NCBI GenBank assembly: GCA_964035575.1
Contig: OZ037833.1
Location: forward strand, 1,488,001 to 1,552,000
DNA: 64,000 nucleotides
From: Rhynchopus sp. YZ270_cl-10
Taxonomy: Eukaryota
Reading direction: 5' to 3'
A program made the position numbers and the translations under genes. A model generated the notes under the pieces. It was not told the DNA's origin and did no database searches. It was given only the letters and a program-made list of their open reading frames with translations. This document shows, piece by piece, positions 373 through 17,894 of the stretch (position 1 is its first letter; every line of letters begins with the position of its first letter).

Positions 373-444
373 GCACTTATGGTATAACGGTTAGTATTCT
401 CGCCTTCCAAGCGAGCGGCCCGGGTTCGACTCCCGGTAAGTGCA
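373..444 (+). tRNA. tRNA-Gly(TCC)
   Basis: Acceptor GCACTTA/TAAGTGC; anticodon arm CTCGC-CTTCCAA-GCGAG; T-loop TTCGACT. Confidence 0.95.
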
Positions 445-732: not shown

Positions 733-805
733 AACCCCGTGCGGGACTCGAACCCGCAACCTTTGGATTCGAAGTCCAACGCGCTATCCATTGCGCCAAC
801 GGGGC
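733..805 (-). tRNA. tRNA-Arg(TCG)
   Basis: Reverse complement: acceptor GCCCCGT/ACGGGGT; anticodon arm TTGGA-CTTCGAA-TCCAA; T-loop TTCGAGT. Confidence 0.95.
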
Positions 806-920
806 CTGATTTGATTTTCATCAGAAAAGAAACGAAACAATGAGTGGGAGCCCTGTACAAAAAAGAATTCCCCGGCCGGGAATTGAACCCGGGTCTTCCG
901 CGTGACAGGCGGAAATACTG

Positions 921-3252
921 GGCCATCCTCCAGTACAGGCCCGCAAAATTTGGCACAGAATGGGCCCAAAAAAACCAGCACAGAATGGAAACGAAAAACC
1001 AGCACAGAATGGAATAGTCGGAGCCTTATAGCCGTGTTCCATTCTGTGCTGGCTTTTCGTTTCCATTCTGTGCTGGTTTTTCAGAAAATTTTTGATTTCC
1101 ATTCTGTACTGGCTTTTCGTTTCCATTCTGTGCTGGCATTTTGACTGAGAAAATGATCCGAAATTCAATACCCGGGTCAGGAGTTTTTTTTCCTCTCCTA
1201 ACAAATCCTTAAGGAAAAGTGAATTATGGATTGCTCAGGATTCCGCAGCCATTCCATTCTGTGCTGGTGTTTCAAAAAAGTACACTTTTTCGTTACGAAC
1301 CAAAAAGTGCACTTTTCTGAAACACCAGCACAGAATGGAATAGCTGGGGAATCCTTAGCAATCCATAATTCACTCTTCCCCTAACAAATCCTTAAGGAAA
1401 AGTGAATTATGGATCACTCAGGATTTCCCAGCCATTCCATTCTGTGCTGGTGTTTCAGAAAAGTGCACTTTTTCGTTACGAACCAAAAAAGTGCACTTTT
1501 CTGAAACACCAGCACAGAATGGAATGGCTGGGAAATCCTGAGTGATCCATAATTCACTTTTCCTTAAGGATTTGCTAAGGGAAACAAAAACTGCTGGTTC
1601 TGGGGTTGGAACCTCCGACCACCAATTTCATACAGTGCACGGAACCTGTGTAGTACTCACTTGGATACTTTGTCTTGCATAAGGATTTTCACCAAGGCGG
1701 ACTAAGTGTCCCAGTGTGTAGCACAGGTTTCATACATAAGAGTTTCTTCGGTGTCGTAGGTTCAAACCCCAGAACCAGCAGTTTTTGTTTCCCCTAACAA
1801 ATCCTTAGGGAAAAGTGAATTATGGATTGCTAAGGATTTCCCAGCCATTCCATTCTGTGCTGGTGATTCAGAAAAGTGCACTTTTTTGGTTCGTAACGAA
1901 AAAGTGCACTTTTCTGAAACACCAGCACAGAATGGAATGGCTGGGAAATCCTGAGTGATCCATAATTCACTTTTCCTTAAGGATTTGCTAAGGGAAACAA
2001 AAACTGCTGGTTCTGGGGTTGGAACCTCCGACCACCAATTTCATACAGTGCACGGAACCTGTGTAGTACTCACTTGGATACTTTGTCTTGCATAAGGATT
2101 TTCACTAAGGCGGACTAAGTGTCCCAGTGTGTAGCACACAGGTTTCATACATAAGAGTTTCTTCGCCGGCGGAGGTTCAAACCCCAGAAGCAGCAGCTTT
2201 TGTTTCCCCTAGCAAATCCTTAGGGAAAAGTGAATTATGGATTGCTAAGGATTTCCCAGCCATTCCATTCTGTGCTGGTGTTTCAGAAAAGTACACTTTT
2301 TCGTTACGAACCTAAAAAGTGCACTTTTCTGAATCACCAGCACAGAAGCCATTCCATTCTGTGCTGGTGATTCAGAAAAGTGCACTTTTTTGGTTCGTAA
2401 CGAAAAAGTGCACTTTTCTGAAACACCAGCACAGAATGGAATGGCTGGGAAATCCTTAGCAATCCATAATTCACTTTTCCTTAAGGATTTGTTAGGGGAA
2501 ACAAAAACTGCTGCTTCTGGGGTTTGAACCTCCGACCACTGGGAAAATAGAATGTGAACAACCCTTGTGGTGCCCACTTGGATGCTTCGTCAGCAATAAG
2601 GATTTCCATTAAAGTAGAGATAGTGTCCTAGTGGTTACCACACAGGTTCCGCACACTACATATTACTACTGGTCGGAGGTTCAAACCCCAGAGGGTGCAG
2701 TTTTTGTTGTTCGTGTGGTTAATAAGCTGGCTGGTGGGTGCGGGTGCACGGGACCCTGCTGGTTCTAGGTTGCGTTATCTGGCTGGTGGTTGTGCGGGTT
2801 TGCGGGTTGACGGGTGCGCGGGTTTGCGGTCCCTAGCTGGTTCGTGTGGTCGATAAGCTGGCTCTTGGGTGCGGGTGTGCGGGAACCTACTGGTTCTAGG
2901 TTGCGTTATCTGGCTGGTGGTTGTGCGGGTTTGCGGGTTGACGGGTGCGCGGGTTTGCGGTCACTAGCTGGTTCGTGTGGTTGTGCGGGTGCGCGGGGTT
3001 CGGGCAGCGTTATCTGGTTCTAGGTTGTGTTAACTGGCTGGTGTAGGTGAAACTTTTTGTCATTTTCAGGTGAGACAAAGTTTTGGCCTGAAAAATTTTC
3101 TCAAAAATCTTGCTCTGTGAAAAAAAAAATTTTTTGTGTAGAAAAATTTTTTTTGGCCTGTAAGTGGGTCAAGTCTGAGTCCGTCCATTCTGTGCTGGTT
3201 TTTGGGTCACCATTCTGTGCTGGATTCCGCCATTCTGTACTGGTGAGTCGCC
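921..3252. mobile_element. Non-autonomous TIR DNA transposon (MITE/foldback-like) with 8-bp TSD AAATACTG
   Basis: TSD at 913-920 and 3253-3260. Imperfect TIRs GGCCATCCTCCAGTACAG / GGCGACTCACCAGTACAG. Many CCAGCACAGAATGG sub-repeats in both orientations, an internal ~420-bp tandem duplication, and no transposase ORF. Confidence 0.88.
2708..3045. repeat. GC-rich TGCGGGTT / CTGGCTGGTG modular repeat, same family as 20890-21700
   Basis: Repeated ggttctaggttgcgttatctggctggtggttgtgcgggtttgcggg modules nested inside the tRNA-Asp insertion. Confidence 0.8.
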
Positions 3253-3378
3253 AAATACTGACCTCTATACTACCGAGGATACAATCTTCACTCTGATTTA
3301 TTTTCGCGGATTAAAATGGTCTAAAATGAGCACAGAAATGACGAAAATGCATGAAAATTTGTGAACAAAAAAATGAAT

Positions 3379-3460
3379 CGCAGTCGGCAGGACTTGAACC
3401 TGCGCGGGCAGAGCCCAATGGATTTCTAGTCCACCTCCGTAACCACTTGGATACGACTGC
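3379..3460 (-). tRNA. tRNA-Ser(AGA)
   Basis: Acceptor GCAGTCG/CGACTGC; anticodon arm GTGGA-CTAGAAA-TCCAT; long variable arm GGGC-TCT-GCCC; G73. Confidence 0.95.
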
Positions 3461-3538
3461 TGTAATTCTCACCGTTCTTTGTTTTTAGGCAGTCATCTGT
3501 TTGCAGAAAATAATCTGGAACACGAAAACGAAAAAAAA

Positions 3539-3622
3539 TCCTCTCGGCCGGAATCGAACCAGCGACCGCTCGATAACCGAGTATTCTACAGTCGAGCGCT
3601 CTACCAATTGAGCTACGAGAGG
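3539..3622 (-). tRNA. tRNA-Tyr(GTA) with 11-nt intron (3575-3585)
   Basis: C1-G72 acceptor CCTCTCG/CGAGAGG; anticodon arm CTCGA-CTGTAG[AATACTCGGTT]A-TCGAG with the intron at canonical position 37/38. Confidence 0.95.
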
Positions 3623-3746
3623 TTCTACAACTGTCATTGTTTTCACAGAAGCCCATAAAATTTTTTGGCTCAAAAAAATTTTTTTGCCACACAAACCTGT
3701 AGAAATTTGCACCCCATGTATTTCTTAATGATACGATAATATCAAG

Positions 3747-3819
3747 GCGAGGTTGGCGCAGTCGGGAGCGCGTAGGTCCCATAATCCTAAGGTCGTCAGT
3801 TCGATCCTGGCACCTCGCA
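3747..3819 (+). tRNA. tRNA-Met(CAT), elongator type, C33 variant
   Basis: Acceptor GCGAGGT/ACCTCGC; anticodon arm TAGGT-CCCATAA-TCCTA with T31:T39; elongator T-loop TTCGATC. Confidence 0.92.
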
Positions 3820-3904
3820 CTTTTTTGTGTGTCTTTTTCCTTTGTGTGGGATTTTCAGCAAAATTTCCACCTTCATGCTAAACGCATTGAAGCCCTAAAT
3901 CATG

Positions 3905-3975
3905 GGCCCTATGGTGTAGCGGTAGCACTATGGATTCCAAATCCATCAACGGCGGTTCGATTCCGTCTAGGGTCA
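3905..3975 (+). tRNA. tRNA-Trp(CCA)
   Basis: Acceptor GGCCCTA/TAGGGTC; anticodon arm ATGGA-TTCCAAA-TCCAT; T-loop TTCGATT. Confidence 0.92.
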
Positions 3976-4057
3976 TTTCTTTTTTTACACACTTTCCTTT
4001 CTGTGTTGTCTTGAAAAACTTCTTCGCAGGAGAAACAGCAAAAGCATCTTAATCAGC

Positions 4058-4129
4058 GGCGATTTAGCTCAGTGGCAGAGCATTGGTCTTGTAAACCAAG
4101 GGTCGGGGGTTCGATCCCCCCAGTTGCCT
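4058..4129 (+). tRNA. tRNA-Thr(TGT)
   Basis: Acceptor GGCGATT/AGTTGCC; anticodon arm TTGGT-CTTGTAA-ACCAA; T-loop TTCGATC. Confidence 0.95.
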
Positions 4130-4226
4130 TTCTATTTTTTGGTGATGTGATGTGATGTGGTTGTGCTGAAGAAGCAGCAACTGAGCACTGGATGTGACAG
4201 GCAGGAACGCAGAAGGGAGATGGCCT

Positions 4227-4634
4227 GGCCGTACTCCAGTACAGGCCCGAGCGAGTGCTCACAGAATGGGCTCCAAAAACCAGCACAGAATGGAATGGCT
4301 GGAGACTTATAGGCTTACTGTAAGGATTTGTTAGGAGTGGAAAAAAAAACTCCTGACCCGGGTATTGAATTTTCAGATCATTTTCTCAGTCACAATGCAA
4401 GCACAGAATGGAAACGAAAAACCAGCACAGAATGGAATGGCTGGAGTCTTATAGCCGTGTTCCATTCTGTGCTTGGTTTTGGTTTCCATTCTGTGCTTGC
4501 ATTGTGACTGAGAAAATGATCCGAAAATTCAATAGCCAGGTCAGGAGTTTTTCCATCTGAATTATGGATTGCTAAGGATTTCCCAGCCATTCCATTCTGT
4601 GCTGGATTCCACCATTCTGTACTGGTGAGTCGCC
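4227..4634. mobile_element. Short (~410 bp) relative of the element inserted in tRNA-Asp
   Basis: Same termini (GGCCGTACTCCAGTACAGGCCCG ... CATTCTGTACTGGTGAGTCGCC) and the same CACAGAATGG sub-repeats. No clean TSD. Confidence 0.8.
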
Positions 4635-4944
4635 AAGAAGCGGCAGCTGAGCACACTGGACATGCCCAGAAAGGAGATAAGTTGTGGGGCTGAAACGTGC
4701 TATCCCCAGCAAAAGGGTCTGGCACTTTTCGCGAGTGGAAGCAGTTCACACCTGGTTGAACGCAAAACCTACACCGGTCGGTGGGAGTCCTGTGTTGGTT
4801 CGGAAAACACATATTTTCACCCAAATTCCACTCTCAACTTGCCAACGAAACAGAACTGAGATCAAGTGGAGGAAATATTTTTTGGTTTTCATTTGCCTCA
4901 AAATCTCAGAAACCTGCAAAATCGTAAACATTCAAAAAGAAAAG

Positions 4945-5017
4945 CACCTCCCGCGGGGCTCGAACCCGCGACCACAAGGTTAAGGGCCTTGCGCTCTACC
5001 GACTGAGCTAGGGAGGC
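4945..5017 (-). tRNA. tRNA-Lys(CTT), C33 variant
   Basis: Acceptor GCCTCCC/GGGAGGT; anticodon arm CAAGG-CCCTTAA-CCTTG; T-loop TTCGAGC. Confidence 0.93.
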
Positions 5018-5125
5018 TCACATTCATTTAAACCAAAGAATCATTGTGGGGGGTGGTCATGCAGAAAAGTCTCTTGTCCTAAATTTGACCACCCCAGAGA
5101 AAAGGAAAGAAGGTAAAACTATTAG

Positions 5126-5198
5126 GCCCGTGTAGCCCAATGGATAAGGCGTTCGCTTCCTAAGCGAAAGATTGTGGGTTCGATCCCCACCATGGGTA
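5126..5198 (+). tRNA. tRNA-Arg(CCT)
   Basis: Acceptor GCCCGTG/CATGGGT; anticodon arm TTCGC-TTCCTAA-GCGAA; T-loop TTCGATC. Confidence 0.95.
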
Positions 5199-5505: not shown

Positions 5506-8500
5506 CAACTTAGCCCTAGGCTCGCTTTTTTTAATCTACATCCAGTGACAGAGGGGGTACTTACTAGTCAAGCGAGTATGTAAACAGCTAGATGTCCAGA
5601 CAAGGGCACTTTACTATTGTACTGGCAAGACAGTGCCTGAAAACACAGTTAGTGGCACTAAAATAGAAAGCATGTGGGACAACTACAACCAACACTTCCC
5701 TGCAAATAAGCAAAAGGGTCGTATGTGAGTGCAATTTTTCCCAAAAGGAAAAGGGGAGGGGATGGGACGGGAGGGTTGCTCTGTCTACCGGTGTAGTTTT
5801 ATTTTGCTTTGTCTTGGGGAGGGGAGGGGAGGAGAAGGAGGGGATTGAGTGAGCCGTTTCCTCTGTAACACACAAACAAATAAAAAGGAAGTTCCATAAT
5901 CTTTTTAGTAGTTTTCTTTTTGGTGAAAATTTTTGAGAACTTCAGTAAGTGTGACCTGACCCGACTGACTGACACCCAAAGGGGAAAACAACAATAACGC
6001 ACAACAAAATCAACAACAACAATGGTGGGTCTCGTGCTTACCTGTGGTGGTTTTGAAAAATGAAAAATTGAAATTGACCTTCACAAGGTAAAAATGAAAA
6101 ACTAAAGGAGTGAAAAAAGGAACTCAAAGGACAAGAGTTCTGTACAAACTCTACTCTACTGCACAATCTATAAAAGTGGCCCAATGGCTCCTGATGCCAC
6201 TGGCCTGGCTCTTAGACAGGTCTTACTCCGAGACTGCCCTCTACCCTCAGAGCCTCGTCCAAGGGGTACGGGCCGTCGCTGGGGTAGACCCGTCCTAGCC
6301 AGCAGCCAACCAAAAATATTAACAAATAGGAAGGGGGGCGGAAAGGGGGGAAAGGGGGGGCAAACCCCAAAGGATGAAAAGAACAAAAAACACAAAATAA
6401 AAAGGGTTAAAAATAAACATGGGGCAAACTGTCATTCTCTACACGCTTCTACACACACACTCTCACCCTCTAACTCTCTAGCTCTCTAATTCTTTTTATT
6501 CCCCTTTTTCCCCTTCCTTCCTCCGCTCTGTCTCCCCTTCTGTCCACCACCGCGACCATTGCGCCCTCTCTGCACCTCCTGGGGCGAGAGCACATGCTGC
6601 GTCGCTTGTGCCACTGCGTCGGTGAACACGTTCGACGTGTTGGACCTACCCTGAGCTGCATGGCGCTGGGGTCCTTTGGGAGCTGGGGAAGGAGCAGGTT
6701 GGGCGGAGGAGGTTGCATTGCCACGGCCTGCCGATGAGGAGGAGGAAGAAGTGGAGACTGCAGGTTGGGCGATGGAGGTTGTAGTGCCACGGCCTGCAGA
6801 GGTGGAGGAAGAAGAAGAAGAAGAGGAGGCTTGAGGTTGTCGGCCTATTCCCTCTCGAGCCGCTCGTGCCTCATTCTCCCTCCTTGTACTCTCCGCTGCA
6901 AAGGCCTGCCCCCTACTGCTCCGGTTGTCCGTCAGGGCATGCAACGTCGACTTTGCCTTGCACTTTTCCTGAACCGACCACTCATGCAAACCCACCACCT
7001 TCATCACCTCATACCACTGAGTGAAAGTAGCGGTAGAGAGGGGGAGTGACAACAAGGGTCTGCCATCCTGTTTCTCTCCCTGACGGTAGTGGAACAGGGA
7101 GATCCACTTCGTCACAGAAGAAGGCACCGGCGACCCCATGGTGAGGCACGGGAAAAGACCCCCCCTCTCCGTCCGCTCCTCCTCCGTCCACATCCAAGCC
7201 TCGCTCTGCGCCCTCAGCAATTCCCTCACCCTCGCTTGCTTCTTCTGGTCAGGGATGCCTTCCACTGACAGAGAATGCGAGCGATCCGCCCCCTCCATCG
7301 CGGTGTCGAGGTCCTCCTCCTGCTCCTGCTCATCATCATCCATCTCCTCCACCTTCACACGCACCTCGGTGTCTGCCGCCTCGGCCTGTCGCCCCACCTC
7401 CTCCTCCAGCTGATCCCGAGAAGGGGTTCCCCAGCTGACCCTGCCTTCCCGAACGACGATGACCGCGCTGGTCTTGCCCCAGGTGTCGCAGTATCCGGCC
7501 TCCCCTGCTATCTTCCTAACCGCCTGACGGGCGACCACCGACTCCGGGCAATCACCGTCCCCCTCCCCGTTCCCACTCCACGGCTGCTGTGTCGCCCAGC
7601 AGTACAGGAACTCGCCCGGGCACGGAGAAGCACCTTGAGGACCAAAGAGAGCCATCCAGTCGCCGACACAGTCAGGTTCGAGTCCTTCAGGGTCGTCGCC
7701 CACCGCTCTCCGCACCGCATGGCAGGGGAGGAATAGCCGCCCTTCGCACACCACCCCAAAGCACCGCCCGTATGCCACCATGCGTTCCGCCTCCAGCTGT
7801 CGGGAGAGGTTCACCGCCGTCAACAACAGAGTGGTCGCCTTCTGCTCCGACTCATGCTTAGCTGCGATGGCGTAATGCCTCTCGCAGCGTTGCCTGTCAT
7901 ACTCCGCCCGGAGCGACTCTCCTGCTTCGGGGTGCCGATCGCAGTCTTCCAAGTACTGCGCATGCATCCTCTTCGCGTCCTCTGCGAGTTCCCGCTTGTG
8001 CCTGGCGGTCAGCTCCTCCACACGATGCCTGTCCGCCGCCTTCGCCTGGTCCAGACGCACATTCTGTTCCTCCAGGAAACGACTCAACTCCTGCTGGCGG
8101 TCGCCAAAAGTGCCCCGAAGCGCGGCCAAATCCGGTCCCCACGACCGACGATGCTCCCGCCGTACCTCCAGGGCTTGCTGCCACGCGTCCGACGCACGCT
8201 GCAACGCTTCCTTCTTATCCTGGTCCGCCTTTTGTTGTTGCTGCTTCTGCTGTTTCCGTTGCTTCTCGTGCTTCTGCTGCTTCTGTTCTGCCTGCTGCCC
8301 CTCTTCGCCCGCCATTGGCGTGTCTACCTCCTCGACGTCCTCGCCCTCGGGAGCTGGCACTGCTGGAGAAGGAGCCCGTTTAGGTGGTGGGTCTCCGCTC
8401 CCCTCCGCAGAGGCAGCCTGAGCCGGAACATTCGAGTGCAAAAAAGACAGGGCACTGAAGTATTCCGCCCTGCCAATTTGCGACAGAGGGCAGTGCTTGG

Positions 8501-11500
8501 ACCCCTGAGCGCAGTGCAGACATGCCAAGCCACCACACGTGTGACAGCAGAAGTGTGCGTCCGACGCATCGAAGAGCTTGCTGCATTGTTCGCACTGCAG
8601 GAAAGTGTTCGACGCCTCCGCCTCCCTCGCTCCCACAAAAGCCATGGGGCGCTCTGACTGGCACTCCCCCTTACCACCTGTGGCCTCAAAAGACAGGATG
8701 TGCTGCTGCAGAGCCGGGTCCATGGTGAGGGGCTCGTAGTGTCCCGGGATACTGCCGGATCCATCTGCCGCATCCTGGTCACCCGAGTGGAGGAGAAGGA
8801 CCACTGCCTTAGGCCGTTTTCTTGGCACCATCAGAGAAGGGCGGGCGAACTCGTTGAGGATGACCACAGATACCTCAAGAGCCTCCCCTGCCCCCGCCAC
8901 TGCAATGGCATCCGCCCACGTTCGCTGGTCTCCTCTGTCCCCACTCGTCATCAGCCGCTGCCAGACCCCAAAATTAGGGACAGCCGCACTCGACAGATCA
9001 GCGCGGCCCTGGACCTTCTTCACTGCCGCCTGGCGCAGACCCTCCACCGACAAATCCGTGCGCCCGGTGGCGAAGAGCAAAGCCTCAAAAGCACAGTCCC
9101 CCGCCACAAACGACCAAGTCACCTTCGAGGCTCCCAGCTTGGCCGCCTGTTCCGTCGCCCGAGGCCTCTGCGCTGCCGGGCACTCACGCAAAAACTCCCA
9201 CTCACGCACCACATCGAGACCCGGCCCTTCCGGAATCACGGTAGCCGAATCAAACCTCCCGGTCCGCTTCCTCGGTGGCTCCACGTGGTCCGGCTTCACG
9301 TCCCTCTTGCGCTTCCCCTGCTGCTCCTCCGACCGGTCTGGAGCAGGACGACTCATATCGTCGTCAGGGTTCGCATCATCACAGAGAGGTTCCACAGCCC
9401 CTGCACTGCGGCGTCCAAACCGGTCCATGTCCTCTGCAGACGGTGCCACATCTACCTCCACACACGGCTCCCGCTTCAGGGTGGCAATCCCTACACACAT
9501 AGCACCCCGCTCCAGAAAGGAAGATGCGACCTTTTTCTGGTACGCCACCGCAATGCTCTCCCGGATGCGCAACTCTGCCGACCCTGTTAGGTGCGACGTC
9601 TGTCCCGTCGTCAGGCCTCCAAGCTGCGCAATCAAGAGGTTCGCCTCGTCGCCTGCACCCCCGAAGGCTTCAAACACAATAGGGGAGAACTTGGTGTTGA
9701 TCTTGTTCAAATCCCGCTCGTGCTTCTCCCGTTTGACCTGGCCCTGGTTCTTCGCCGACCAGCCCACAAACTTCGAGGCCCCTGTTCTGTAGGAAGGCAA
9801 GGTGGGGCACACGTGGGTGATGTCCAAACAACGAGGTCCATTTTCCGCCACTCCTACTGGGAGGTAGACATCGCCTGGCCGCTTCTTAGACTCCAACTCC
9901 ACTCGCACGGTCTCCTCCAAAGCAGGGTCCAAGCCCGCCCCTTGAGCCGCTCTGTACACCGAATCCCGCAAGGCGTTGTGGCGGGCGACGCGGTGTTTGG
10001 AGTAGGGGCAGCCAAAGGTGTGGTCGCCAAAGGAGTCCATGACAACCCTTTTCTGCCCCCCCTGACATGCCGAGCAAGTCGTTCCCTCCGCATGGATGGC
10101 CACCCCTAGTCGGAAACGGGTCACAACCGCAAAATCCGCTGAAGACATCTGGTTCCTTGCTGATGGTGTCGCCGTGAGGTACGTCCCAGAAAGCGGCAGG
10201 AGAAGGGACTTCATCCGTGCTCGGTCTCGCATGCAGAGCTGTTGCATCAACTTGTCTGCCTGGGCGTCAATCACCGCAGATGACAGACTCTGCTGCTCCA
10301 GGATCTTCTTCGGCTGGGCCCTGTCCACGTGAAACGCCACCGGTACCCTGGAGTTGTACTCCTCAGCTGCGCTGTTCCATCTCTCCTCATCCCAGGTGAA
10401 GGCAGGGTCCAAGGCCTGCGACAGTTGCAGGTTCCCTGACTGAGAGGCGAGGGACGCAGCCGTCCGATGGTCCACTGTGCGACGGATACCCAGCCCCCCA
10501 AGCGCCACAGGAAGCGCCGCCTGCGCCCTTGCCAACTCCGGCAGCGCCCCATCCGGGTCATGCAGAAGCGCAGCCAGGCACCTGTCGATCAGGTCGTCAA
10601 AGGCCGTCAGGTACTCCGCGCACTGTGGGATCCCCCGCATGTAGAACACCATGCGGCAGTAGCCTTCGCAGTATCTCAGTACGTAGAAGGCTGCCTGGGA
10701 GTCCCCGAGGTCCACAAGGGCTTCCAGGTTGCGGCGGGAATCGTCCACCTTCCGGGCCATGTACTCCTCGCAGAATGCCGCAGACCCAATGGGGATGCCC
10801 AAGAAATCGAACCCATCCACATCCAACAGCCGGAACCCGCCTTCACCCATGGCGTCCTGTCCACCCTCGGTCAACGTGAACCCCACCGCCTTGAGCTCCT
10901 CCGTGGAGACGCCACCAGTGGAGATGAGCTCACACTTGTTCGCGTTCACCTCCAACCCCAGTTCGGAGCTACGAGTGCGCAGAACCTGGTACGCCTCAAA
11001 AACCGCCTTAGGGGACCCCCGCAGAGAGCCGTCATCGAGGTACCACAAAGTCCCATCCAGGCCTGGGTGCCCCTTCAGCTCTAGCGCCATCTGGTGGATG
11101 GTCAGGGAGAAGAGAAGCGGGCCCAAGGGATCTCCTTGTTGAGCTCCGCGCTGTGACCTTATGGTATCTCCACCATAAAACAGGCTGGAGGGCTCCAGGT
11201 AACACCATCGCACCCATGGGGCCAGCTCGGGGAGGTTCGCGTCGACCGCTCTTAGCATCGACAGGCGGTCTACGCAGTTGAACGCGTTACGGTAGTCAAT
11301 TTTCAAAATGACTTTACCTTTTCCGCGGTTGCGCACGGCGTACTGCGAGATAACATCCGTCGCCACTGCCGCCCCCCTTGCCGTTGCCACCCCCACCTGG
11401 TTCCCTCGAAGAAGAAGCGTCCTAGCAGGCACCCGCACTCGCGCCGACAGAATCTTTCCCACCAGTCTGCGGAGAGTGTCCCCAACCGCAATCGGTCGCA

Positions 11501-13590
11501 CGTCCTCCTCCAGGCCCGGCCCCTTTGCAGGCTTCCGGAGAGCCACCAAGTTAGCGCCGGCGAAGAACTCAGCCACCTCCACTGGAGCATTTCCTCGTGC
11601 CAAAGACGTCAACACTGCGGCCAGCGCTGCCAAAGTGCCCTTAGCCCGCCTCTGTAGGCAAAGTGTACGAAGGTGCGCGCCCGTCACGTTCGAGGGACCC
11701 GCCGCCGATGACTTCGGCATGCTCCGCAGGGCCTTCATCACCTCCACCACTGTCACCGGTGGGACCTCCTGAGGCTGGGGCCAATCCGCCTGCTCCAGGG
11801 CCTTGGAGTCGGCAGCGGCTGGGTGCTTCGTCTGAAGCTTTTCCAGCGTCGCCGGTGTCTGTGGGGCGAGGCCGTCGCTGGTAGCGCAAGACATGGCCTG
11901 GCTCGGGAGTCCTGCTCTCGCTTTGGCGATGGTGCGCTTCCGTCTCCCTTCGTCAGTGTCTTCATCCGACCACCCAGAGGGCCTTGGCTTCCGCTCCTCT
12001 ACCGTTTGCTCCCACAGGGCGACATACTGGCCAGCCTTCCAAGCCTCCAAGTCCTTCCCCCAGGTGCTCGTCAAACGTCGCTCCTGGTCCTTGCCCCCTC
12101 GTTCTGTCCGTGTCCGGTGCAACACTGTGAAGAACAGTGCAAGGCGCTTCCAGGCCACCTCGTCCTGGTACTCCAGGATGTCCATGAGGACCCTCAGGAA
12201 GAGCTCGCTGTACAGCTGTAGGTGTTTGTCTGGGCACCCGCCCTTCAGCTGGATCCTGGTGGTCCCCATGACTTCAAAGGAGGGGAGGTCATCCTGATCT
12301 GTCAGCATTCCTCGACTGGAGGGAGACGGAGCGGTGAAGCCTTCTTCGCCAAAGTGCACCGTACAGGTGTTGCAGACCTCCTTGCTCTGCGGCAATAGCA
12401 TGTCGCACTGATCGTTCGCACAGCGCGACATGCCCAAGTGGCCCAACAGCTCGTCGGGGATGTACGCTCCATCGGCCTGGTGGCGACGCATGTGCTGCAG
12501 CAAGCCCTTACGAGACAGGCCCCCGACCGCATCACTCGAAGACAAAATTCCCGCTCTGCATCCATCAAAGGGGCAGAACACCCGATCCGCATTGATGTGT
12601 CCCAGCTTGGTAGCCAGGGGGGCGGTGGTGGTGGTGTTGGTGGGGATGATGCCATCCAAATGCGCTGTGTCCAGCACTGCCTGCCGAGCCTCCTTCCTCA
12701 TCTTCTCTGCCATCCCCTCCTTGGTCTTCCCCACCTCCGGGACAAGCTCCACTGCCTCAAAGTGAGAGTCACAGAGAGCGATGACGACCGTGGGAAGTTT
12801 CGCTTGGAAGCTCTCCGCGTACGACTTGGCGACTCTTTTGCTACCAGGGGTGATGCGCACGAGGGGGTTCTCTTCCGATGCCTGCACCACCACGATGTTG
12901 ATGCGGGATGCTGTCGCGGTGAGCTGAAGCCCCAAGTGGTTGAGGTGGGCCTCGCCGGTCACACCATTGGCAAACTCCGTCATGGCCTCCTGCGACCCCA
13001 GCACCTGCACCAGGCGGTTCGACACCTCCACTGCTGTGTCATACAGCTGCTTGCGCATTGCCCTCACGTCCGGCTGCGTGTCGTGGTCCCAGAGGTGTAG
13101 TGCCACATAACCACAATCATTAGTAGACACGTTGGGGATGCGTTTAGCTCCAAACTTCGCCAGAGTCGCGTCCACAGACACCGCCTGCTCAGTATACGCA
13201 GGAGCGTTCACGTTTGCGCACCCACCGGTCAACGCAAACGGGGACAAGCTTACCGGGTGCTCCGGATCAGCAGGGGCAGGGCGCAGGTCCCAGGGCGTCA
13301 CCGCTCGCCACAACAACGACAGCAAGACCAGTAGGGACACCGCCAGCATGCCAAATGCCATCCCGATCCTACGAGTCCACCTGCGTGCTGCCACACGGCG
13401 CACCTCCAAGAGAAGAACCCAGCCAAGTGGGCGCGCGACGCCGACCAGTGCCACAAAACCCGCCAAACAACCACCTGCGGACCATGCAACCCACACCCAC
13501 TCGGCTGCACGCACCGACAACTGACCCACCCCCATCACACTGGCTCTCACCAAGCTGGCAGCCACTCGGATCCCTCCGGTCCATCGGTGC
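5461..13590 (-). mobile_element. Non-LTR retrotransposon, CRE clade (RT plus restriction-like endonuclease), poly(A)-tailed
   Basis: Poly(T) on the + strand at 5461-5506, ~1-kb 3' UTR, and a single long ORF with CRE-type RT and RLE motifs. The 5' boundary is approximate and must lie below the U4 promoter at 13592. No TSD found. Confidence 0.9.
6486..13535 (-). CDS. Retrotransposon polyprotein: hydrophobic N-terminus, OTU-like protease 1, Zn fingers, RT, Zn knuckle, RLE, OTU-like protease 2, Cys-rich Zn finger, coiled coil, basic tail
   Basis: RT: RPIAVGDTLRRLVGK, KIDYRNAFN, QRGAQQGDPLGPLLF, WYLDDG. CCHC: CSAC..DHTFGC. RLE: RHNALRD..KRPGD..LDITHV..KREKH. OTU-like: NDCGYVAL..HFEAV and GDCAFEAL..WAD..GHYEPL. 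Start placed at the first ATG outside the U4 gene and its promoter. Confidence 0.88.
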   Translation of the reverse strand: MGVGQLSVRAAEWVWVAWSAGGCLAGFVALVGVARPLGWVLLLEVRRVAARRWTRRIGMAFGMLAVSLLVLLSLLWRAVTPWDLRPAPADPEHPVSLSPFALTGGCANVNAPAYTEQAVSVDATLAKFGAKRIPNVSTNDCGYVALHLWDHDTQPDVRAMRKQLYDTAVEVSNRLVQVLGSQEAMTEFANGVTGEAHLNHLGLQLTATASRINIVVVQASEENPLVRITPGSKRVAKSYAESFQAKLPTVVIALCDSHFEAVELVPEVGKTKEGMAEKMRKEARQAVLDTAHLDGIIPTNTTTTAPLATKLGHINADRVFCPFDGCRAGILSSSDAVGGLSRKGLLQHMRRHQADGAYIPDELLGHLGMSRCANDQCDMLLPQSKEVCNTCTVHFGEEGFTAPSPSSRGMLTDQDDLPSFEVMGTTRIQLKGGCPDKHLQLYSELFLRVLMDILEYQDEVAWKRLALFFTVLHRTRTERGGKDQERRLTSTWGKDLEAWKAGQYVALWEQTVEERKPRPSGWSDEDTDEGRRKRTIAKARAGLPSQAMSCATSDGLAPQTPATLEKLQTKHPAAADSKALEQADWPQPQEVPPVTVVEVMKALRSMPKSSAAGPSNVTGAHLRTLCLQRRAKGTLAALAAVLTSLARGNAPVEVAEFFAGANLVALRKPAKGPGLEEDVRPIAVGDTLRRLVGKILSARVRVPARTLLLRGNQVGVATARGAAVATDVISQYAVRNRGKGKVILKIDYRNAFNCVDRLSMLRAVDANLPELAPWVRWCYLEPSSLFYGGDTIRSQRGAQQGDPLGPLLFSLTIHQMALELKGHPGLDGTLWYLDDGSLRGSPKAVFEAYQVLRTRSSELGLEVNANKCELISTGGVSTEELKAVGFTLTEGGQDAMGEGGFRLLDVDGFDFLGIPIGSAAFCEEYMARKVDDSRRNLEALVDLGDSQAAFYVLRYCEGYCRMVFYMRGIPQCAEYLTAFDDLIDRCLAALLHDPDGALPELARAQAALPVALGGLGIRRTVDHRTAASLASQSGNLQLSQALDPAFTWDEERWNSAAEEYNSRVPVAFHVDRAQPKKILEQQSLSSAVIDAQADKLMQQLCMRDRARMKSLLLPLSGTYLTATPSARNQMSSADFAVVTRFRLGVAIHAEGTTCSACQGGQKRVVMDSFGDHTFGCPYSKHRVARHNALRDSVYRAAQGAGLDPALEETVRVELESKKRPGDVYLPVGVAENGPRCLDITHVCPTLPSYRTGASKFVGWSAKNQGQVKREKHERDLNKINTKFSPIVFEAFGGAGDEANLLIAQLGGLTTGQTSHLTGSAELRIRESIAVAYQKKVASSFLERGAMCVGIATLKREPCVEVDVAPSAEDMDRFGRRSAGAVEPLCDDANPDDDMSRPAPDRSEEQQGKRKRDVKPDHVEPPRKRTGRFDSATVIPEGPGLDVVREWEFLRECPAAQRPRATEQAAKLGASKVTWSFVAGDCAFEALLFATGRTDLSVEGLRQAAVKKVQGRADLSSAAVPNFGVWQRLMTSGDRGDQRTWADAIAVAGAGEALEVSVVILNEFARPSLMVPRKRPKAVVLLLHSGDQDAADGSGSIPGHYEPLTMDPALQQHILSFEATGGKGECQSERPMAFVGAREAEASNTFLQCEQCSKLFDASDAHFCCHTCGGLACLHCAQGSKHCPLSQIGRAEYFSALSFLHSNVPAQAASAEGSGDPPPKRAPSPAVPAPEGEDVEEVDTPMAGEEGQQAEQKQQKHEKQRKQQKQQQQKADQDKKEALQRASDAWQQALEVRREHRRSWGPDLAALRGTFGDRQQELSRFLEEQNVRLDQAKAADRHRVEELTARHKRELAEDAKRMHAQYLEDCDRHPEAGESLRAEYDRQRCERHYAIAAKHESEQKATTLLLTAVNLSRQLEAERMVAYGRCFGVVCEGRLFLPCHAVRRAVGDDPEGLEPDCVGDWMALFGPQGASPCPGEFLYCWATQQPWSGNGEGDGDCPESVVARQAVRKIAGEAGYCDTWGKTSAVIVVREGRVSWGTPSRDQLEEEVGRQAEAADTEVRVKVEEMDDDEQEQEEDLDTAMEGADRSHSLSVEGIPDQKKQARVRELLRAQSEAWMWTEEERTERGGLFPCLTMGSPVPSSVTKWISLFHYRQGEKQDGRPLLSLPLSTATFTQWYEVMKVVGLHEWSVQEKCKAKSTLHALTDNRSSRGQAFAAESTRRENEARAAREGIGRQPQASSSSSSSSTSAGRGTTTSIAQPAVSTSSSSSSAGRGNATSSAQPAPSPAPKGPQRHAAQGRSNTSNVFTDAVAQATQHVLSPQEVQRGRNGRGGGQKGRQSGGRKGKKGNKKN

Positions 13591-13591
13591 A

Positions 13592-13606
13592 CTTCCCTGT
13601 GGACAT
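13592..13606 (+). promoter_or_regulatory. PSE-like element of U4 (CTTCCCTGTGGACAT, -47)
   Basis: Same motif and offset as upstream of U2 (13887) and the SL RNA genes (-46). Confidence 0.7.
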
Positions 13607-13638
13607 AGCTTTGTGACACGACTGGGAGAAAAGGAGGT

Positions 13639-13780
13639 ATTCTTGCGCTCGGGATAATTCCATAAGCAATGACCAAATAGGGACGCTGTGGAGAGATTGC
13701 TGGTTGAAAACTACCCAATTCCCGCCATGGGCCGCTTCGGCGTTGCCACATTGGCAATTTGTGTAGCTGCTTCGGCGGCC
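13639..13780 (+). ncRNA. U4: U4 snRNA
   Basis: 5' ATTCTTGCGC pairs with U6 GCGCAAGGAT (stem II). Kink-turn-like GCAATGACC-AAATA-GGGACGC; TGCTGGTTGAAAACT (stem I, conserved U4 motif); CCCGCCATG...CATTGGC; Sm site AATTTGTG; terminal cUUCGg hairpin. Confidence 0.92.
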
Positions 13781-13886
13781 TTGTTTTTACTAATAAGATT
13801 GATCATCACCTTCACTTACTTCCCTGTGACATGGGTGTGTAATCTGCTTGCCTTGTTGTTTCCTAGTAATATTGATCATAATCATG

Positions 13887-13900
13887 CTTCCCTGTACATG
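13887..13900 (+). promoter_or_regulatory. PSE-like element of U2 (CTTCCCTGTACATG, -47); second copy near 13819
   Basis: Motif and spacing shared with U4 and the SL genes. Confidence 0.72.
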
Positions 13901-13933
13901 GGTGTCGAATTCGGTATGGACTAAAAAGAAGTC

Positions 13934-14120
13934 ATACCTTCTCGGCCTTTTGGCTAAGATCAAGTGTATTATCTGTTCTTATCAGCTTAATATCTGATAC
14001 AGTGCCTTGTGCACTGATGATATTAACGCAATTTCTCATTGGGGTGACGGGTCGCCAGGGCAACCTGGTCCGTTCACACATGTTGCCCTGGAGCTGCACA
14101 ACATCCAGGAGTGGCATACC
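13934..14120 (+). ncRNA. U2: U2 snRNA
   Basis: ATACCTTCTCGGCCTTTTGGCTAAGATCAAGTGTATTATCTGTTCTTATCAGCTTAATATCTGATA is the U2 5' domain. The 3' stem-loop IV has a TGCAC loop and is followed by a T-run. Confidence 0.97.
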
Positions 14121-14217
14121 CTCTTTTTTAACAAAACAAAAACAAACATACCATACATACCATACATACACAGTGGTTACCACTGTGATGTGGGTTATTA
14201 AAAACAGAGGTCGGAGC

Positions 14218-14366
14218 GAGCCTCTCAATGTCAGAGGCTTCAAAGCATTTCACGAGAAAACTCGCCCCTGTCCTTCTTCATCACTATCACTTGACCGAAC
14301 ACTCCCTGCAAGGAAGCCTGTAAAAGGCGATGCTTAGGCAACAACACAGACACAGGGGGGGTGCTG
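14218..14366 (-). ncRNA. U5: U5 snRNA-like (divergent or pseudogene)
   Basis: Invariant loop-1 nonamer GCCTTTTAC closed by AAGC/GCTT and CCCTGTG/TGCAGGG stems. Degenerate Sm-like AATGCTTTGA is followed by the hairpin AGCCTCT-GACATTG-AGAGGCT. Ends are approximate. Confidence 0.55.
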
Positions 14367-14385
14367 GGTGGGAAAATATAAAAAA

Positions 14386-14710
14386 GGGTGCTTGCGTTGT
14401 GTGCTGGATCGGGACCACCAGTAAACTGGCAGCCCCACATCCAGTTCTAATATTTGAAGTGTGAAATAGAACGCAGTCAGAATTAGTGTTACACGCTAAT
14501 GTAAGAATAATCATCATGGGTAATATTCTGTACGAACGTACGGGATTTACATCATATGAAAGTAGTTCCGCCTTGGGCCATATCAGGCCCAACAGCAGGA
14601 CCGCATCATAAAAATTGTAAAGAATTTTCTTAAATAGAAAGGTCTTTTCAAGTTTTAGCTGTTGCTGAACGAGTTGTTTGGTTTCGAAGTAGCACACTAA
14701 CTTAGCACCC
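14386..14710 (-). ncRNA. Unidentified ~325-nt structured Pol III-type RNA
   Basis: 5'/3' closing stems GGGTGCT/AGCACCC and GTGTGCT/AGCACAC, an immediate T6 terminator, internal hairpins, and the U6/7SL upstream element at the identical -34 offset. Confidence 0.75.
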
Positions 14711-14734
14711 AAACATAGGGAGAGTATGGGAAAA

Positions 14735-14770
14735 CAAGACAGGGTTGTCTTGTTGGAGGTGGGTCAGGGT
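14735..14770 (-). promoter_or_regulatory. Upstream element shared by the unknown RNA, 7SL (15446-15480) and U6 (16035-16083)
   Basis: caagacaggg...gttggag.tgggtcagg occurs three times. The CCCTGT core starts 34 nt before each inferred 5' G (14710, 15421, 16010). Confidence 0.75.
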
Positions 14771-14831
14771 GACACACACTTTGTACATGCATCATATGTG
14801 TGAATGTTTTTTCTCATGGTGACGTAAAAAA

Positions 14832-14944
14832 GGCCAGTCTCTTTCGAGGCTGGCCATGTTTGACAAAGTTGTGTGAGAAGAATATAATCTTCATGCTTCC
14901 ATACCAATGAAGTACAGAAACTGTAGCTTTAGAAATCGTTGGTT
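14832..14944 (-). ncRNA. SL: Spliced-leader (SL) RNA gene copy 1 (40-nt exon 14905-14944)
   Basis: AACCAACGATTTCTAAAGCTACAGTTTCTGTACTTCATTG/GTATGG: diplonemid-type exon and GT donor, two further hairpins and a T-run. Confidence 0.96.
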
Positions 14945-15104
14945 GCCCTTTTTCTTAACATTGCTCTAAGCACCAACATGTACTGGTAAACATGCCACTT
15001 GTGGTGAATAATGTGGGTAGGAATGGTCTGGGCAACGTGGTGGGGTGTATCAACAACACATGTGTATGGTGATGTGGAAACAATGTTCACATGGAAAAAT
15101 GTAA

Positions 15105-15421
15105 AAAAGAAACGCTTCTCCAGTTCAAGCCATTGAGTTGGAAACACCCTCACTCTGCTCTGTGCTGCGATCCTTGAACTGTCCACTGCAGGAGTTATGA
15201 GCTGCTCTGTGAGACCAGCCTGGCCCGGTTCACCCCATTTCACTCTGATTGTTGCCCTGGTTTACACCAAGGCCGCAAACAGGACAGTAGACTAACACGG
15301 ACAACACATCAACACAGAAGTTGAAGGTGCCTTTGGTCCACCTCAAAGAGTGCCCAGTTCTGGAGAAGCTTGCCCCCCCAGAAGCTAGGGGTTTCAGGAT
15401 GCAGCCAACACATCCCGGCTC
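15105..15421 (-). ncRNA. 7SL: 7SL / SRP RNA
   Basis: Alu 5' GCCGGG...CCTGAAACCCCTAGCTTCTGGGGGGGC; helix 6 with GTAA tetraloop; helix 8 CCAGG..AGCAG SRP54 motif; GCTTCTCCAG/CTGGAGAAGC pairing; T-run. Confidence 0.93.
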
Positions 15422-15574
15422 AATAGATACCATATTGTCGGAATACAAGACAGGGTTGTCTAGTTGGAGGTGGGTCAGGTCAAAAACGTGGTTTTGAAGA
15501 TCCTCACTTCTTGTGTGTGTTTTTTTTTTGCTTTGCACAAAGACACACAAAGACAATCATGCTAACGTAAAAAA

Positions 15575-15686
15575 GGCCAGTCTCTTTCGAAACTAGCCAT
15601 GTTTTGACAAAGTTGTGTGAGAAGAGTAATCTTCATGCTTCCATACCAATGAAGTACAGAAACTGTAGCTTTAGAAATCGTTGGTT
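15575..15686 (-). ncRNA. SL: SL RNA gene copy 2
   Basis: Identical 40-nt exon and GT donor; small intron-region differences. Confidence 0.96.
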
Positions 15687-15904
15687 GCTCTTTTTCTCTA
15701 CACAGCTTTCGACATGTATATGCTCAGGGAAGCATGCCAGTAGCATAAACCATATGGTCGTTTTTTGAAACCAATATTTCAATGGGTTACTGCAGCCTGC
15801 CACTTGCCACCTGTGGGTGATGGGTATGTCTGCACATATGTGTTGGTCTGGGAAGCATGAAGAAGACACCAGTGTAAAAAATACGTGTGATCCGGGGGAC
15901 AAAA

Positions 15905-16010
15905 AAAAAGTTGATACTTTCTCGATTAATGCGTGTCATCCTTGCGCAGGGACCATGCTAATCTTCTCTGTATCGATCCAATTTTAACGGATGTCCCATT
16001 TCTGGGGTCC
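15905..16010 (-). ncRNA. U6: U6 snRNA
   Basis: ACAGAGA box, AAGATTAGCATGGTCCCTGCGCAAGGATGACACGCA, and a T9 end. Confidence 0.98.
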
Positions 16011-16166
16011 AGTATATATGCACAAGGTGGTTGACAAGACAGGGGCCCCTTGTTGGAGTTGGGTGTTGGAGTTGGGTCAGGGTCTGAATGTGGTTCTAAA
16101 CTTCTGCTGTTGTTGTGTGGGTTTTTTTGCTTCTTGTGCACAAGACGATCGTGTTAACGTAAAAAA

Positions 16167-16278
16167 GGCCAGTCTCTTTCGAAACTGGCCATGTTTTGAC
16201 AAAGTTGTGTGAAGAATATAATCTTCATGCTTCCATACCAATGAAGTACAGAAACTGTAGCTTTAGAAATCGTTGGTT
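16167..16278 (-). ncRNA. SL: SL RNA gene copy 3
   Basis: Identical exon and donor. Confidence 0.96.
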
Positions 16279-16525
16279 GCCTTTTTTCTCTACAATGTTC
16301 TAAGCTCCTACGTGTGCTGGGAAGCCATCTTTCAGTGTCCTAAATATGGTCGCTCTCATAAGAGTCAACAGTGGTTTCTGAAGGGGCATATGTGGTACCA
16401 GTGCCACAAATGGTTGCCCACATGGTTTTGCAGGCGATATACAAATGGGTTTCAGCAAGCACTTGTGTGTGATGGGAATCATGTGTGTTTTTTGGGTTTG
16501 CACAAGGTGATGTTAACGTAAAAAA

Positions 16526-16639
16526 GGCCAGTCTCTTTCGAGGCTGGCCATGTTTTGACAAAGTTGTGTGAGAAGAATATAATCTTCATGCTTCCATACC
16601 AATGAAGTACAGAAACTGTAGCTTTAGAAATCGTTGGTT
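16526..16639 (-). ncRNA. SL: SL RNA gene copy 4
   Basis: Identical exon and donor; upstream CATGCTTCCCAGTACATG with CTTCCC at -46. Confidence 0.96.
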
Positions 16640-17894
16640 GCCTTTTTTCTCTACAACGTTCTGAGCACCAACATGTACTGGGAAGCATGACAGTAGTATC
16701 AAAAATATGATGGTTTTTTCGTACCTAACATCTTGTACACTGAGAAGGTTCTGCACAAGTGGAAGCCTATATAAGAATATTCATAAGAGTCAAAAGGGGC
16801 TTCTGAAGGGGTATATGGGTAGTATGAGCTCATATGAATCCATTAAAAGCGTCTATGGCATGATCAAAGCATCACATAATTTCTGAAATCAATACCAACC
16901 ACAATTTACGGCTATTTTTCCAGCAATAGCCGTATCATGGCTTATAACCATACCTAAGGATGCCCAATATGCTGGAAAAGTTAATAATCTTGGGTATATA
17001 GGGTTTTTGGGCACATTTGAGTCAATTGCGGGGTCTTACGATTTAATTTGAGCATCACACATATCCTAATCACCTATATAATCGAAAAACACACACAAAA
17101 TGACCTACATAGCCGTAAAATGACCCAAATGTGCATATTCGGGTTGAAATTTCATTTTTTCGGAAAGTTTTTTTTTCTCAACAATTACATGGGTGAGTTC
17201 CGAGTACATTATGGGGTCGTAAGTTTTTATTCAAGCATCACACATTATGTAGAATACTTATGCCATACAATGTTACCAAAAAAAGTCGATTTTTGGTCAC
17301 TTTTTCAAAAATATGAAAATTCGATTTTTGGGTACTAGATAGGTCTTTCCGGTGCAAAAACGACCGTTAAATGGATTCTCCGGGGTCCTAAGGCCCCAAA
17401 AATCACTTTTGGACACACGGGCAATATCCCAGTATACCCTAGGAAATTGGTGGGAACCCAAAAATTGGCCTCAAAATCCGACCAAAACCAAGGTTTCTGT
17501 AGAGGTACATGTGAACCTCATGTGTGTTCTGGAGACCCATTTTGTTTTGAAAAGTGAATCTAAATAGCCAAAAATTTAAAACTCTTGTAGCGCATTCGGA
17601 ATAGAGGGGGTATTCGCGAAAACCTGTGCGAAACATTTATCAATTCAGGTCTGACCCACATGGTCATGACCCCATATTTTGGGTGCGGAAAACACCCTAT
17701 CTGTTGACCTACCGGCTTGTATGCCTGTATACCTGGTTGGGTCAACTTTTTGAAAATTTCCTGGGCCATATACCCTATTTGGGCCCCCTGAATCCATTGC
17801 GACATCGTTTTTTCACATCCGAGTGAAAACTAATATATAGGATAACCCATGGGTATGGGTACCTCGCTCAATACCCCTAAAATCAGTGCTTTTG

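What the first reader, a model, noticed from the sequence alone, without database searches (positions are those of the whole stretch)
14386..14710. Unidentified ~325-nt structured Pol III-type RNA sharing the U6/7SL promoter
Seen: the element upstream of U6 and 7SL occurs a third time. Exactly 34 nt downstream begins GGGTGCT, which pairs with AGCACCC directly before a T6 terminator; a second closing stem is GTGTGCT/AGCACAC. Inside are an A-rich open region, hairpins TTGGGCC/GGCCCAA and GTACG/CGTAC, a box C/D-like pair (ATGATGA..CTGA around ATTAG/CTAAT) and a long 3' hairpin TGGAT-GGGGCT-GCCAGT/ACTGGT-GGTCCC-ATCCA. It matches no snRNA, U3, 5S or tRNA that I recognise. There are partial echoes of vault RNA (TACTTCGA near the 5' end) and RNase MRP (TGGGGCT), and no CTAACCCTA telomerase template. 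Inference: a real, possibly undescribed ncRNA embedded among trans-splicing RNAs.
Basis: partly seen in the sequence, partly recalled or inferred. Interest (0 to 1): 0.9.

Follow-up and report, generated by a model that had tools for sequence, protein, structure and literature searches.

The report
Oversized vault RNA in a diplonemid
This 325-letter non-coding gene has ends that match the vault RNA of the sleeping-sickness parasite in letters and base pairs, so it is likely a vault RNA, about twice that RNA's length, predicted to bind the vault protein TEP1 in what is likely a diplonemid, a group of marine protists.

Summary
The feature is real and lies on the minus strand (14710 to 14386, then T6). 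It folds far better than shuffles (z -5.8), follows a promoter shared with 7SL and U6, and is covered by contigs of two RNA runs that stay inside its bounds. Rfam finds no family. However, its ends match the Trypanosoma brucei vault RNA (TBsRNA-10) as printed in two papers' supplements, compared by eye: 16 of 25 columns at the 5' end, 9 of the last 11 at the 3' end, and 14 of 16 comparable base pairs kept in register, 6 by changes on both sides. So it is most likely a vault RNA, not a new class. What differs: 325 nt against about 150 (T. brucei) and about 190 (longest named in a 2022 review); a 285-nt multi-hairpin middle; no usable internal box A/B; a place directly behind a spliced-leader gene. 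The host is likely a diplonemid, where my searches found no vault RNA in print; the primary trypanosome paper was not available. TEP1 binding is inferred, not tested. The box C/D, MRP and telomerase leads are not supported.

The parts
14386..14710 (-). Vault RNA homologue, 325 nt (5' G at 14710; last C at 14386)
   Evidence: Fold z -5.83; ends match T. brucei vtRNA (compared by eye); contigs of three runs lie only inside it. The 5' end is inferred from promoter spacing and the closing stem, not mapped.
14734..14769 (-). Upstream promoter-like element shared with 7SL and U6
   Evidence: Alignment of three upstream regions, motif scan. Promoter function is inferred.
14704..14710 (-). 5' arm of terminal stem (pairs with 14392-14386, 7 bp)
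   Evidence: Pair probability 0.98; 5 of 6 comparable pairs kept in T. brucei, 1 by a two-sided change
14691..14703 (-). 5' side of the bulged helix: AA loop, 3-bp stem, bulged A, 7-bp second stem
   Evidence: Pair probabilities 0.96 and 0.93; second stem 7 of 7 pairs kept in T. brucei, 4 two-sided and 1 one-sided change
14686..14691 (-). TACTTC motif at the end of the second stem
   Evidence: Identical and in register in T. brucei vtRNA
14406..14690 (-). Central domain, 285 nt, multibranched: U-rich hairpin 14651-14615, GC hairpin 14596-14570, helix 14604-14599/14478-14473, long hairpin 14442-14406
   Evidence: Predicted; part 21-268 folds with z -3.0 against letter shuffles; indels and substitutions in relatives fall here
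14386..14405 (-). 3' side of the bulged helix, with CGCAA (14396-14392) across the internal loop
   Evidence: 9 of the last 11 letters identical to T. brucei vtRNA without gaps (against 45)
14380..14385 (-). T6 Pol III-type terminator
   Evidence: Sequence; RNA-run contigs stop at 14386 and 14387 without loose ends
14832..14944 (-). Spliced-leader RNA gene copy directly upstream (context)
   Evidence: One of four copies found at 14944, 15686, 16278, 16639; leader closest to the 'Euglenozoa 14' consensus
15112..15419 (-). 7SL RNA gene with the same upstream element (context)
   Evidence: Rfam RF00017, 129 bits
15904..16009 (-). U6 snRNA gene with the same upstream element (context)
   Evidence: Rfam RF00026, 94 bits

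Best explanation
This 325-nt minus-strand gene folds into a bulged end helix that matches the T. brucei vault RNA in letters and base pairs, so it is likely the vault RNA of a likely diplonemid, predicted to be made by RNA polymerase III from the upstream element that it shares with U6 and 7SL and to bind the vault protein TEP1 through that helix. Shown: sequence, shared upstream element, T6, match of both ends, cover by RNA-run contigs. Inferred: Pol III starts at G14710 and stops in T6; the paired ends with the AA/GCA loop, bulged A and UACUUC form the handle for the TROVE domain of TEP1; TEP1 carries most of the RNA into the vault shell, as in T. brucei; the 285-nt middle is a variable, hairpin-rich surface for other proteins, likely tied to the handling of spliced-leader and other small RNPs, which is the role reported for the T. 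brucei RNA.
For: T. brucei vtRNA as printed in PMC3273796 supplement and, labelled vtRNA and recovered with MVP1, in Fig. S10 of PMC12547018. By-eye comparison with the window: 16 of 25 columns identical at the 5' end (one gap), 11 of 20 at the 3' end (9 of the last 11, no gap); 14 of 16 comparable pairs kept in register (7 unchanged, 6 two-sided, 1 one-sided change). Controls: both end motifs together occur once in the window, in 0 of 200 shuffled windows (looser core motifs: 4 of 200); 0 of 20000 shuffles of the RNA carry both core motifs in register. 0 of 97 viral loci that carry the 5' motif by chance carry the 3' motif; best end score 14 against 20 for this RNA. Fold z -5.83. Upstream element shared with 7SL and U6. 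All 5 contigs laid from X12, X13, X14 lie within 14386-14695. Vault RNAs are conserved only at their ends and vary in the middle (PMC7058938; PMC10498592). Diplonemids have two MVP paralogues and TEP1 is found in Diplonema (PMC12547018 section 13).
Against: Rfam's vault model gives no hit even at E up to 10. [quoted passage not shown] The length is far outside the reported range. The comparison rests on one homologue, by eye, and the motifs used in the controls were drawn after seeing both sequences. Two of 16 pairs are not kept in register. TEP1 and MVP genes could not be sought in this organism (no genome held), and TEP1 is only sporadically found outside trypanosomatids. The runs laid were found with a stretch that contains this gene, contigs of RNA libraries can be DNA, and the spliced-leader gene next door had no cover in X12, X13, X14.
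Confidence: 0.85

Rival explanations
1. It descends from the same ancestor but works like a Y RNA: it would bind a Ro60-type TROVE protein, or TEP1 outside the vault, and not enter vault particles.
For: Y RNA genes use upstream (type 3) promoters and have a bulged end stem (PMC10498592); this gene has an upstream element and no usable box A/B. A Y-like role is proposed for the T. brucei RNA itself (PMC9326685). TEP1 is sporadic outside trypanosomatids.
Against: The recalled Y RNA stem motifs are absent; no Rfam Y RNA hit; its one matched homologue is pulled down with TEP1 and MVP1.
Confidence: 0.07
2. It is a telomerase RNA made by Pol III, as in ciliates and plants (recalled).
For: Pol III-type gene of a few hundred nt with open A/C-rich stretches at 28-38 and 245-261; TEP1 was first found with telomerase.
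Against: None of the six 6-nt permutations of the CCCTAA template occurs (assumes TTAGGG telomeres, recalled, not checked for this organism). The T. brucei telomerase RNA is a different, 900-nt Pol II RNA.
Confidence: 0.02
3. It is RNase MRP or RNase P RNA.
For: Size about 300 nt, paired ends, Pol III-type promoter; TGGGGCT resembles conserved region V (recalled); diplonemids encode POP5 (supplement row of PMC10161547).
Against: Recalled CR-I and CR-V patterns give no match; TGGGGCT sits 46-52 nt from the 3' end in a hairpin with pair probability 0.98; no Rfam MRP or P hit.
Confidence: 0.02
4. It is U3 or the host transcript of a box C/D snoRNA.
For: ATGATGA at 194 and CTGA at 231; weak Rfam C/D matches, E 7.5 and 8.6.
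Against: Those matches are far below gathering (15-16 bits against 45-50). The CTGA reads CCGA in one X14 contig (depth 2.6, may be an error) and overlaps a helix of probability 0.82. No U3 box A (recalled pattern).
Confidence: 0.02
5. It is a silent by-product of duplication of a spliced-leader/promoter cassette.
For: The unit 'spliced-leader gene + shared element + gene' repeats three times.
Against: Compensated pairs with T. brucei, z -5.83, RNA-run contigs ending at the predicted 3' end, stems kept under changed letters in relatives.
Confidence: 0.02

Closest known systems
T. brucei vault RNA (TBsRNA-10) and trypanosomatid vtRNAs
   Same: 5' GGGYGC..AAG, UACUUC, 3' CGCAA..CRCCC before a U run; three-part bulged end helix in the same register with six two-sided pair changes; Pol III-type terminator.
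   Different: 325 nt against about 150 nt (T. brucei) and about 190 nt (L. braziliensis, named the longest known in PMC9326685); middle of 285 nt against 109, A/U-rich (37% GC over 26-262) with no evident sequence match; terminal stem 7 bp against 5; gene sits behind a spliced-leader gene with a U6/7SL-type upstream element.
Vertebrate vault RNAs (Rfam Vault family)
   Same: Paired ends around a variable central domain, Pol III. The UACUUCG run after the second stem is also recalled from human vtRNA1-1 (no call).
   Different: [quoted passage not shown]
Y RNAs (Ro60 partners)
   Same: Bulged end stem, variable loop domain, upstream promoter.
   Different: 84-112 nt in humans; recalled stem motifs absent; different protein partner.

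Membership tests
Vault RNA (trypanosomatid type) | Short conserved 5' and 3' stretches | tested here: met
   16 of 25 and 11 of 20 columns identical to T. brucei vtRNA, by eye; chance controls
Vault RNA (trypanosomatid type) | Bulged terminal helix formed by the two ends | tested here: met
   Pair probabilities 0.93-0.98; 14 of 16 comparable pairs kept in register, 6 two-sided changes
Vault RNA (trypanosomatid type) | Variable central domain | tested here: met
   285 nt, no evident match to T. brucei's 109 nt; variants in relatives fall there
Vault RNA (trypanosomatid type) | Transcribed by RNA polymerase III | tested here: inconclusive
   T6 terminator and upstream element shared with U6 and 7SL; polymerase not testable
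Vault RNA (trypanosomatid type) | Binds TEP1 and associates with MVP | not testable with these tools
   No genome held; MVP and TEP1 reported in diplonemids
Vault RNA (vertebrate type, Rfam) | [quoted passage not shown] | tested here: not met
   Matrices from the window's 11 tRNAs score -0.9 (position 7) and -2.3 (position 295); about 1-2% of window positions score as well. Not filed under the vertebrate type.
Vault RNA (vertebrate type, Rfam) | Match to the Rfam model; length 84-141 nt | tested here: not met
   No hit at E up to 10; 325 nt
Y RNA | Ro-binding stem motif | tested here: not met
   Recalled motifs absent; no Rfam hit
RNase MRP / RNase P RNA | CR-I and CR-V forming the P4 pseudoknot | tested here: not met
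   Recalled patterns absent; no Rfam hit
Telomerase RNA | Template complementary to the telomere repeat | tested here: not met
   No CCCTAA permutation; repeat of this organism assumed
Box C/D snoRNA or U3 | Conserved box C and D closing a kink-turn; U3 box A | tested here: inconclusive
   Box C and CTGA present but CTGA changed in one low-depth contig; Rfam scores far below gathering; no box A pattern

The most novel reading that the evidence does not exclude
Diplonemids have turned the vault RNA into a long modular RNA: the conserved TEP1 handle carries a 285-nt domain that acts directly on trans-splicing RNPs, for instance by pairing of its GC hairpin (123-146) with the 3' stem-loop of U4 snRNA during recycling, and the gene is built into spliced-leader cassettes under a U6/7SL promoter. 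This would give vault RNAs a first defined RNA target.
Probability: 0.08. Interest if true: 0.8.

Novelty: new variant of a known kind. Interest (0 to 1): 0.47.

Why it matters
What vault RNAs do is a long-standing open question, and they are hard to find by homology because only their ends are conserved. This locus would extend the family from trypanosomatids to diplonemids, raise the known length from about 190 to 325 nt, and show with compensated pairs which end features have been kept across Euglenozoa (AA/GCA loop, bulged A, UACUUC), the likely TEP1 handle. It gives a two-ended pattern and a promoter tag for finding vault RNAs that Rfam misses, and a natural long variant for testing whether the middle or the ends carry function. 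It is not a new RNA class.

Tried and rejected
Rfam at gathering on the whole window and at E up to 10 on 1001 and 351 nt: no credible family. Metagenome scan with a 17-mer: 22 of 22 loci are chance matches with no further likeness. Prokaryote genome scan with a 20-mer of the 3' end: 0. Viral scan with the 5' motif: 97 stretches, 0 with the 3' motif; used as a control. The 3' motif alone with one mismatch is no better than chance (1 seen, 0.91 expected). So no set of full-length homologues was obtained, and no covariance model or pair-count test was run. Earlier findings: nothing by sequence, words or place. Pairing of the middle (21-268) with six neighbours: five of six no better than letter shuffles; U4 gave -32.8 kcal/mol (0 of 40; 0 of 150 dinucleotide shuffles; 0 of 150 natural stretches), but both partners are locked in their own hairpins, and joint folding does not form this helix (net -1.8 with the U4 3' part; -9.3 with whole U4 by another helix, within the shuffle range -5.6 +/- 2.0, minimum -12.3; U4/U6 control -14.2). 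Kept only as a lead. Strand cannot be told from folding alone (z -5.8 plus, -6.6 minus). My first reading of 14205-14345 as U5 was not supported. No cover of the flanks or of the spliced-leader gene in X12, X13, X14 proves nothing by itself. Kolev et al. 2019, the accompanying commentary, the TEP1-binding paper PMC549401 and a recalled paper on Euglenozoa MRP RNA were not held.

Full report
Observation. The feature is on the minus strand, from G14710 to C14386 (325 nt), followed by six T. It folds at -104.7 kcal/mol against -70.9 +/- 5.8 for 100 dinucleotide shuffles (z -5.83, 0 of 100). The ends close three stacked helices: 1-7/319-325, 10-12/313-315 and 14-20/306-312, with mean pair probabilities 0.98, 0.96 and 0.93, an AA/GCA internal loop and a bulged A13. 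The 285 nt between form a multibranch domain with four well-supported helices or hairpins (0.82-0.99) and several weak ones. An element of about 36 nt upstream aligns with those before 7SL and U6; its core starts 33, 35 and 34 nt before the 5' ends. Rfam places U4, U2, 7SL, U6 and 11 tRNAs in the window but nothing on this gene, and E-value searches give only 12-20 bit matches far below gathering.

Context. Four spliced-leader gene copies lie on the same strand; three of them are each followed by the shared element and a Pol III-type gene: U6, 7SL and this RNA. The leader is closest to the 'Euglenozoa 14' consensus in PMC3795323 (passage seen; its attribution to Diplonema is recalled). For a neighbouring protein (49240-50613), the two best relatives among 11 others are unnamed (75%, 57%) and the third is from Diplonema papillatum (46%). 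The host is therefore likely a diplonemid other than D. papillatum; one protein and the leader are all the evidence. No whole genome is held.

Identity. The T. brucei RNA TBsRNA-10 is printed in the supplement of PMC3273796 and again, labelled vtRNA, in Fig. S10 of PMC12547018. It is the vault RNA: identified by short conserved 5' and 3' stretches forming a bulged terminal helix, Pol III transcription and TEP1 pull-down (review PMC9326685, passage), and recovered with MVP1 (PMC12547018 section 10). I compared it with the window by eye. At the 5' end 16 of 25 columns are identical with one gap (GGG.GC, AAG, TACTTC). At the 3' end 11 of 20 are identical without gaps, 9 of the last 11 (CGCAA.C.CCC), before the T run. 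Of 16 comparable base pairs 14 are kept in the same register: 7 unchanged, 6 changed on both sides, 1 on one side. In the second stem all 7 pairs are kept although only 2 are unchanged (G-C to U-A, G-C to C-G, U-A to G-C, C-G to A-U, U-A to U-G). Two pairs are not kept: C6-G320 (a mismatch in T. brucei) and U12-A313 (where the bulged A appears shifted by one).

Controls. The two end motifs occur together once in the window and in 0 of 200 dinucleotide shuffles; with looser core motifs, in 4 of 200; 0 of 20000 shuffles of the RNA carry both core motifs in register. Of 97 viral stretches that carry the 5' motif by chance, 0 carry the 3' motif, and their best end score is 14 against 20 here. These motifs were drawn after seeing both sequences, so the controls show rarity, not a blind P value. 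The 3' motif alone is not significant.

Expression and variation. 24 runs were listed, 20 holding some of 13600-16100, from 15 studies. I laid 4 of them on 14200-15080. All 5 contigs of X13 (RNA), X14 (RNA) and X12 (library not on record) lie inside the gene: 14387-14632; 14386-14475 and twice 14446-14533; 14390-14695. The two RNA studies stop at the predicted 3' end without a loose end. This is a weak hint only: contigs cannot show ends or strand, RNA libraries can hold DNA, the runs were found with a stretch containing the gene, no DNA run laid continued across that end, and the spliced-leader gene had no cover in these three runs. X10 has 8 records, 1 on this gene (60 nt, 2 differences, then diverging). 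Differences fall in the middle: in X10 the U-rich hairpin keeps five pairs with changed letters; in X14 the GTAC/GTAC stem is kept with another loop, and the CTGA of the supposed box D reads CCGA (single contigs of depth 2.6-3.1, read by eye from 30-letter loose ends; may be errors).

Mechanism. Shown: the gene anatomy, the match of both ends, the shared upstream element. Inferred: Pol III transcription from that element, since internal boxes A and B score at background (-0.9 and -2.3 bits against 9-19 for 11 tRNAs); binding of the bulged end helix by the TROVE domain of TEP1, because these are the only parts kept between the two lineages and TEP1 is the known partner; loading into vaults, where most T. 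brucei vtRNA appears to reside; a role of the nuclear pool in spliced-leader RNP handling, as reported for T. brucei (second-hand). Diplonemids encode two MVPs and TEP1 is found in Diplonema. The middle is most simply a variable protein-binding surface. I put 0.85 on vault RNA homology with TEP1-type function, and much less on any particular role of the middle.

A lead, not a finding. Among six neighbours tested, only U4 pairs with the middle better than shuffles in raw duplex energy (123-146 with U4 83-104, -32.8 kcal/mol; 0 of 150 shuffles, 0 of 150 natural stretches). Both sides are in their own hairpins and joint folding does not form the helix.

Rivals. Y-like RNA (0.07), telomerase RNA (no template), RNase MRP/P (no CR-I or CR-V), box C/D or U3, and a silent duplicate (0.02 each) are treated in their sections; the family motifs used are recalled.

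Novelty. Vault RNAs are given as 84-140 nt, with L. braziliensis (about 190 nt) the longest known in a 2022 review. This one is 325 nt. Searches for a diplonemid vault RNA in print (listings and abstract starts only) showed none; the D. papillatum genome paper has no 'vault' in its main text or 7 held supplements, but those files also lack 'structural RNA', so its Additional file 1 was probably not seen. Kolev et al. 2019 was not held; it and its supplements may list candidates outside trypanosomatids. Files 13-20 of the PMC12547018 supplement were not searched. Papers seen: PMC12547018 (passages, sections 10 and 13, supplement hits), PMC10161547 (passages, section 10, supplement hits), PMC3273796 (passages, supplement hits), PMC9283944 (passages, supplement hits), PMC9326685, PMC7058938, PMC7916137, PMC11012908, PMC10491885, PMC10498592, PMC3795323 (passages).

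Verdict. A real gene; a new, oversized variant of a known kind; interest 0.47.

Noticed in passing
window 14205-14345, minus strand: Unassigned structured segment right after this gene's terminator, ending in T5: it holds GCCTTTTAC (like U5 loop I, recalled), a box C-like TGATGAAGA and a CTGA; no Rfam U5 or U3 hit at E up to 10. Could be a divergent U3, U5 or C/D RNA.
   Followed up: partly
window 14386-16640: Repeating cassette: spliced-leader gene, shared upstream element, Pol III-type gene (U6, 7SL, vault RNA). It differs from the SL-5S-U2 repeat described for D. papillatum.
   Followed up: partly
window 13519-13600, 13815-13905 and upstream of the leader copies: U4, U2 and the spliced-leader genes share a CTTCCC(T/A)G..CA element about 40-55 nt upstream; U4 also has the CTGACCCAC part of the U6/7SL element; U2 has its element twice (by eye). 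A candidate snRNA promoter set for diplonemids.
   Followed up: no
window 14905-14944: The spliced-leader exon appears to be 40 nt, one longer than the 39 nt given for D. papillatum and other Euglenozoa.
   Followed up: no
window 6486-13757, minus strand: Long open frame (2423 aa) with a reverse transcriptase domain between the tRNA cluster and U4; its called start overlaps U4, so the true start is likely further in. A site-specific retroelement is recalled as typical of such arrays.
   Followed up: no
window 13721-13742 and 14565-14588: Raw complementarity between the U4 3' stem-loop region and a GC hairpin of the vault RNA, beyond shuffles but not favoured once self-structure is counted.
   Followed up: partly
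window 52-5198: Cluster of 11 tRNA genes; the tRNA at 5126-5198 or neighbours were not examined further.
   Followed up: no
window 28413-49040: Three EGF-like/laminin G genes and a hAT transposase-like frame.
   Followed up: no
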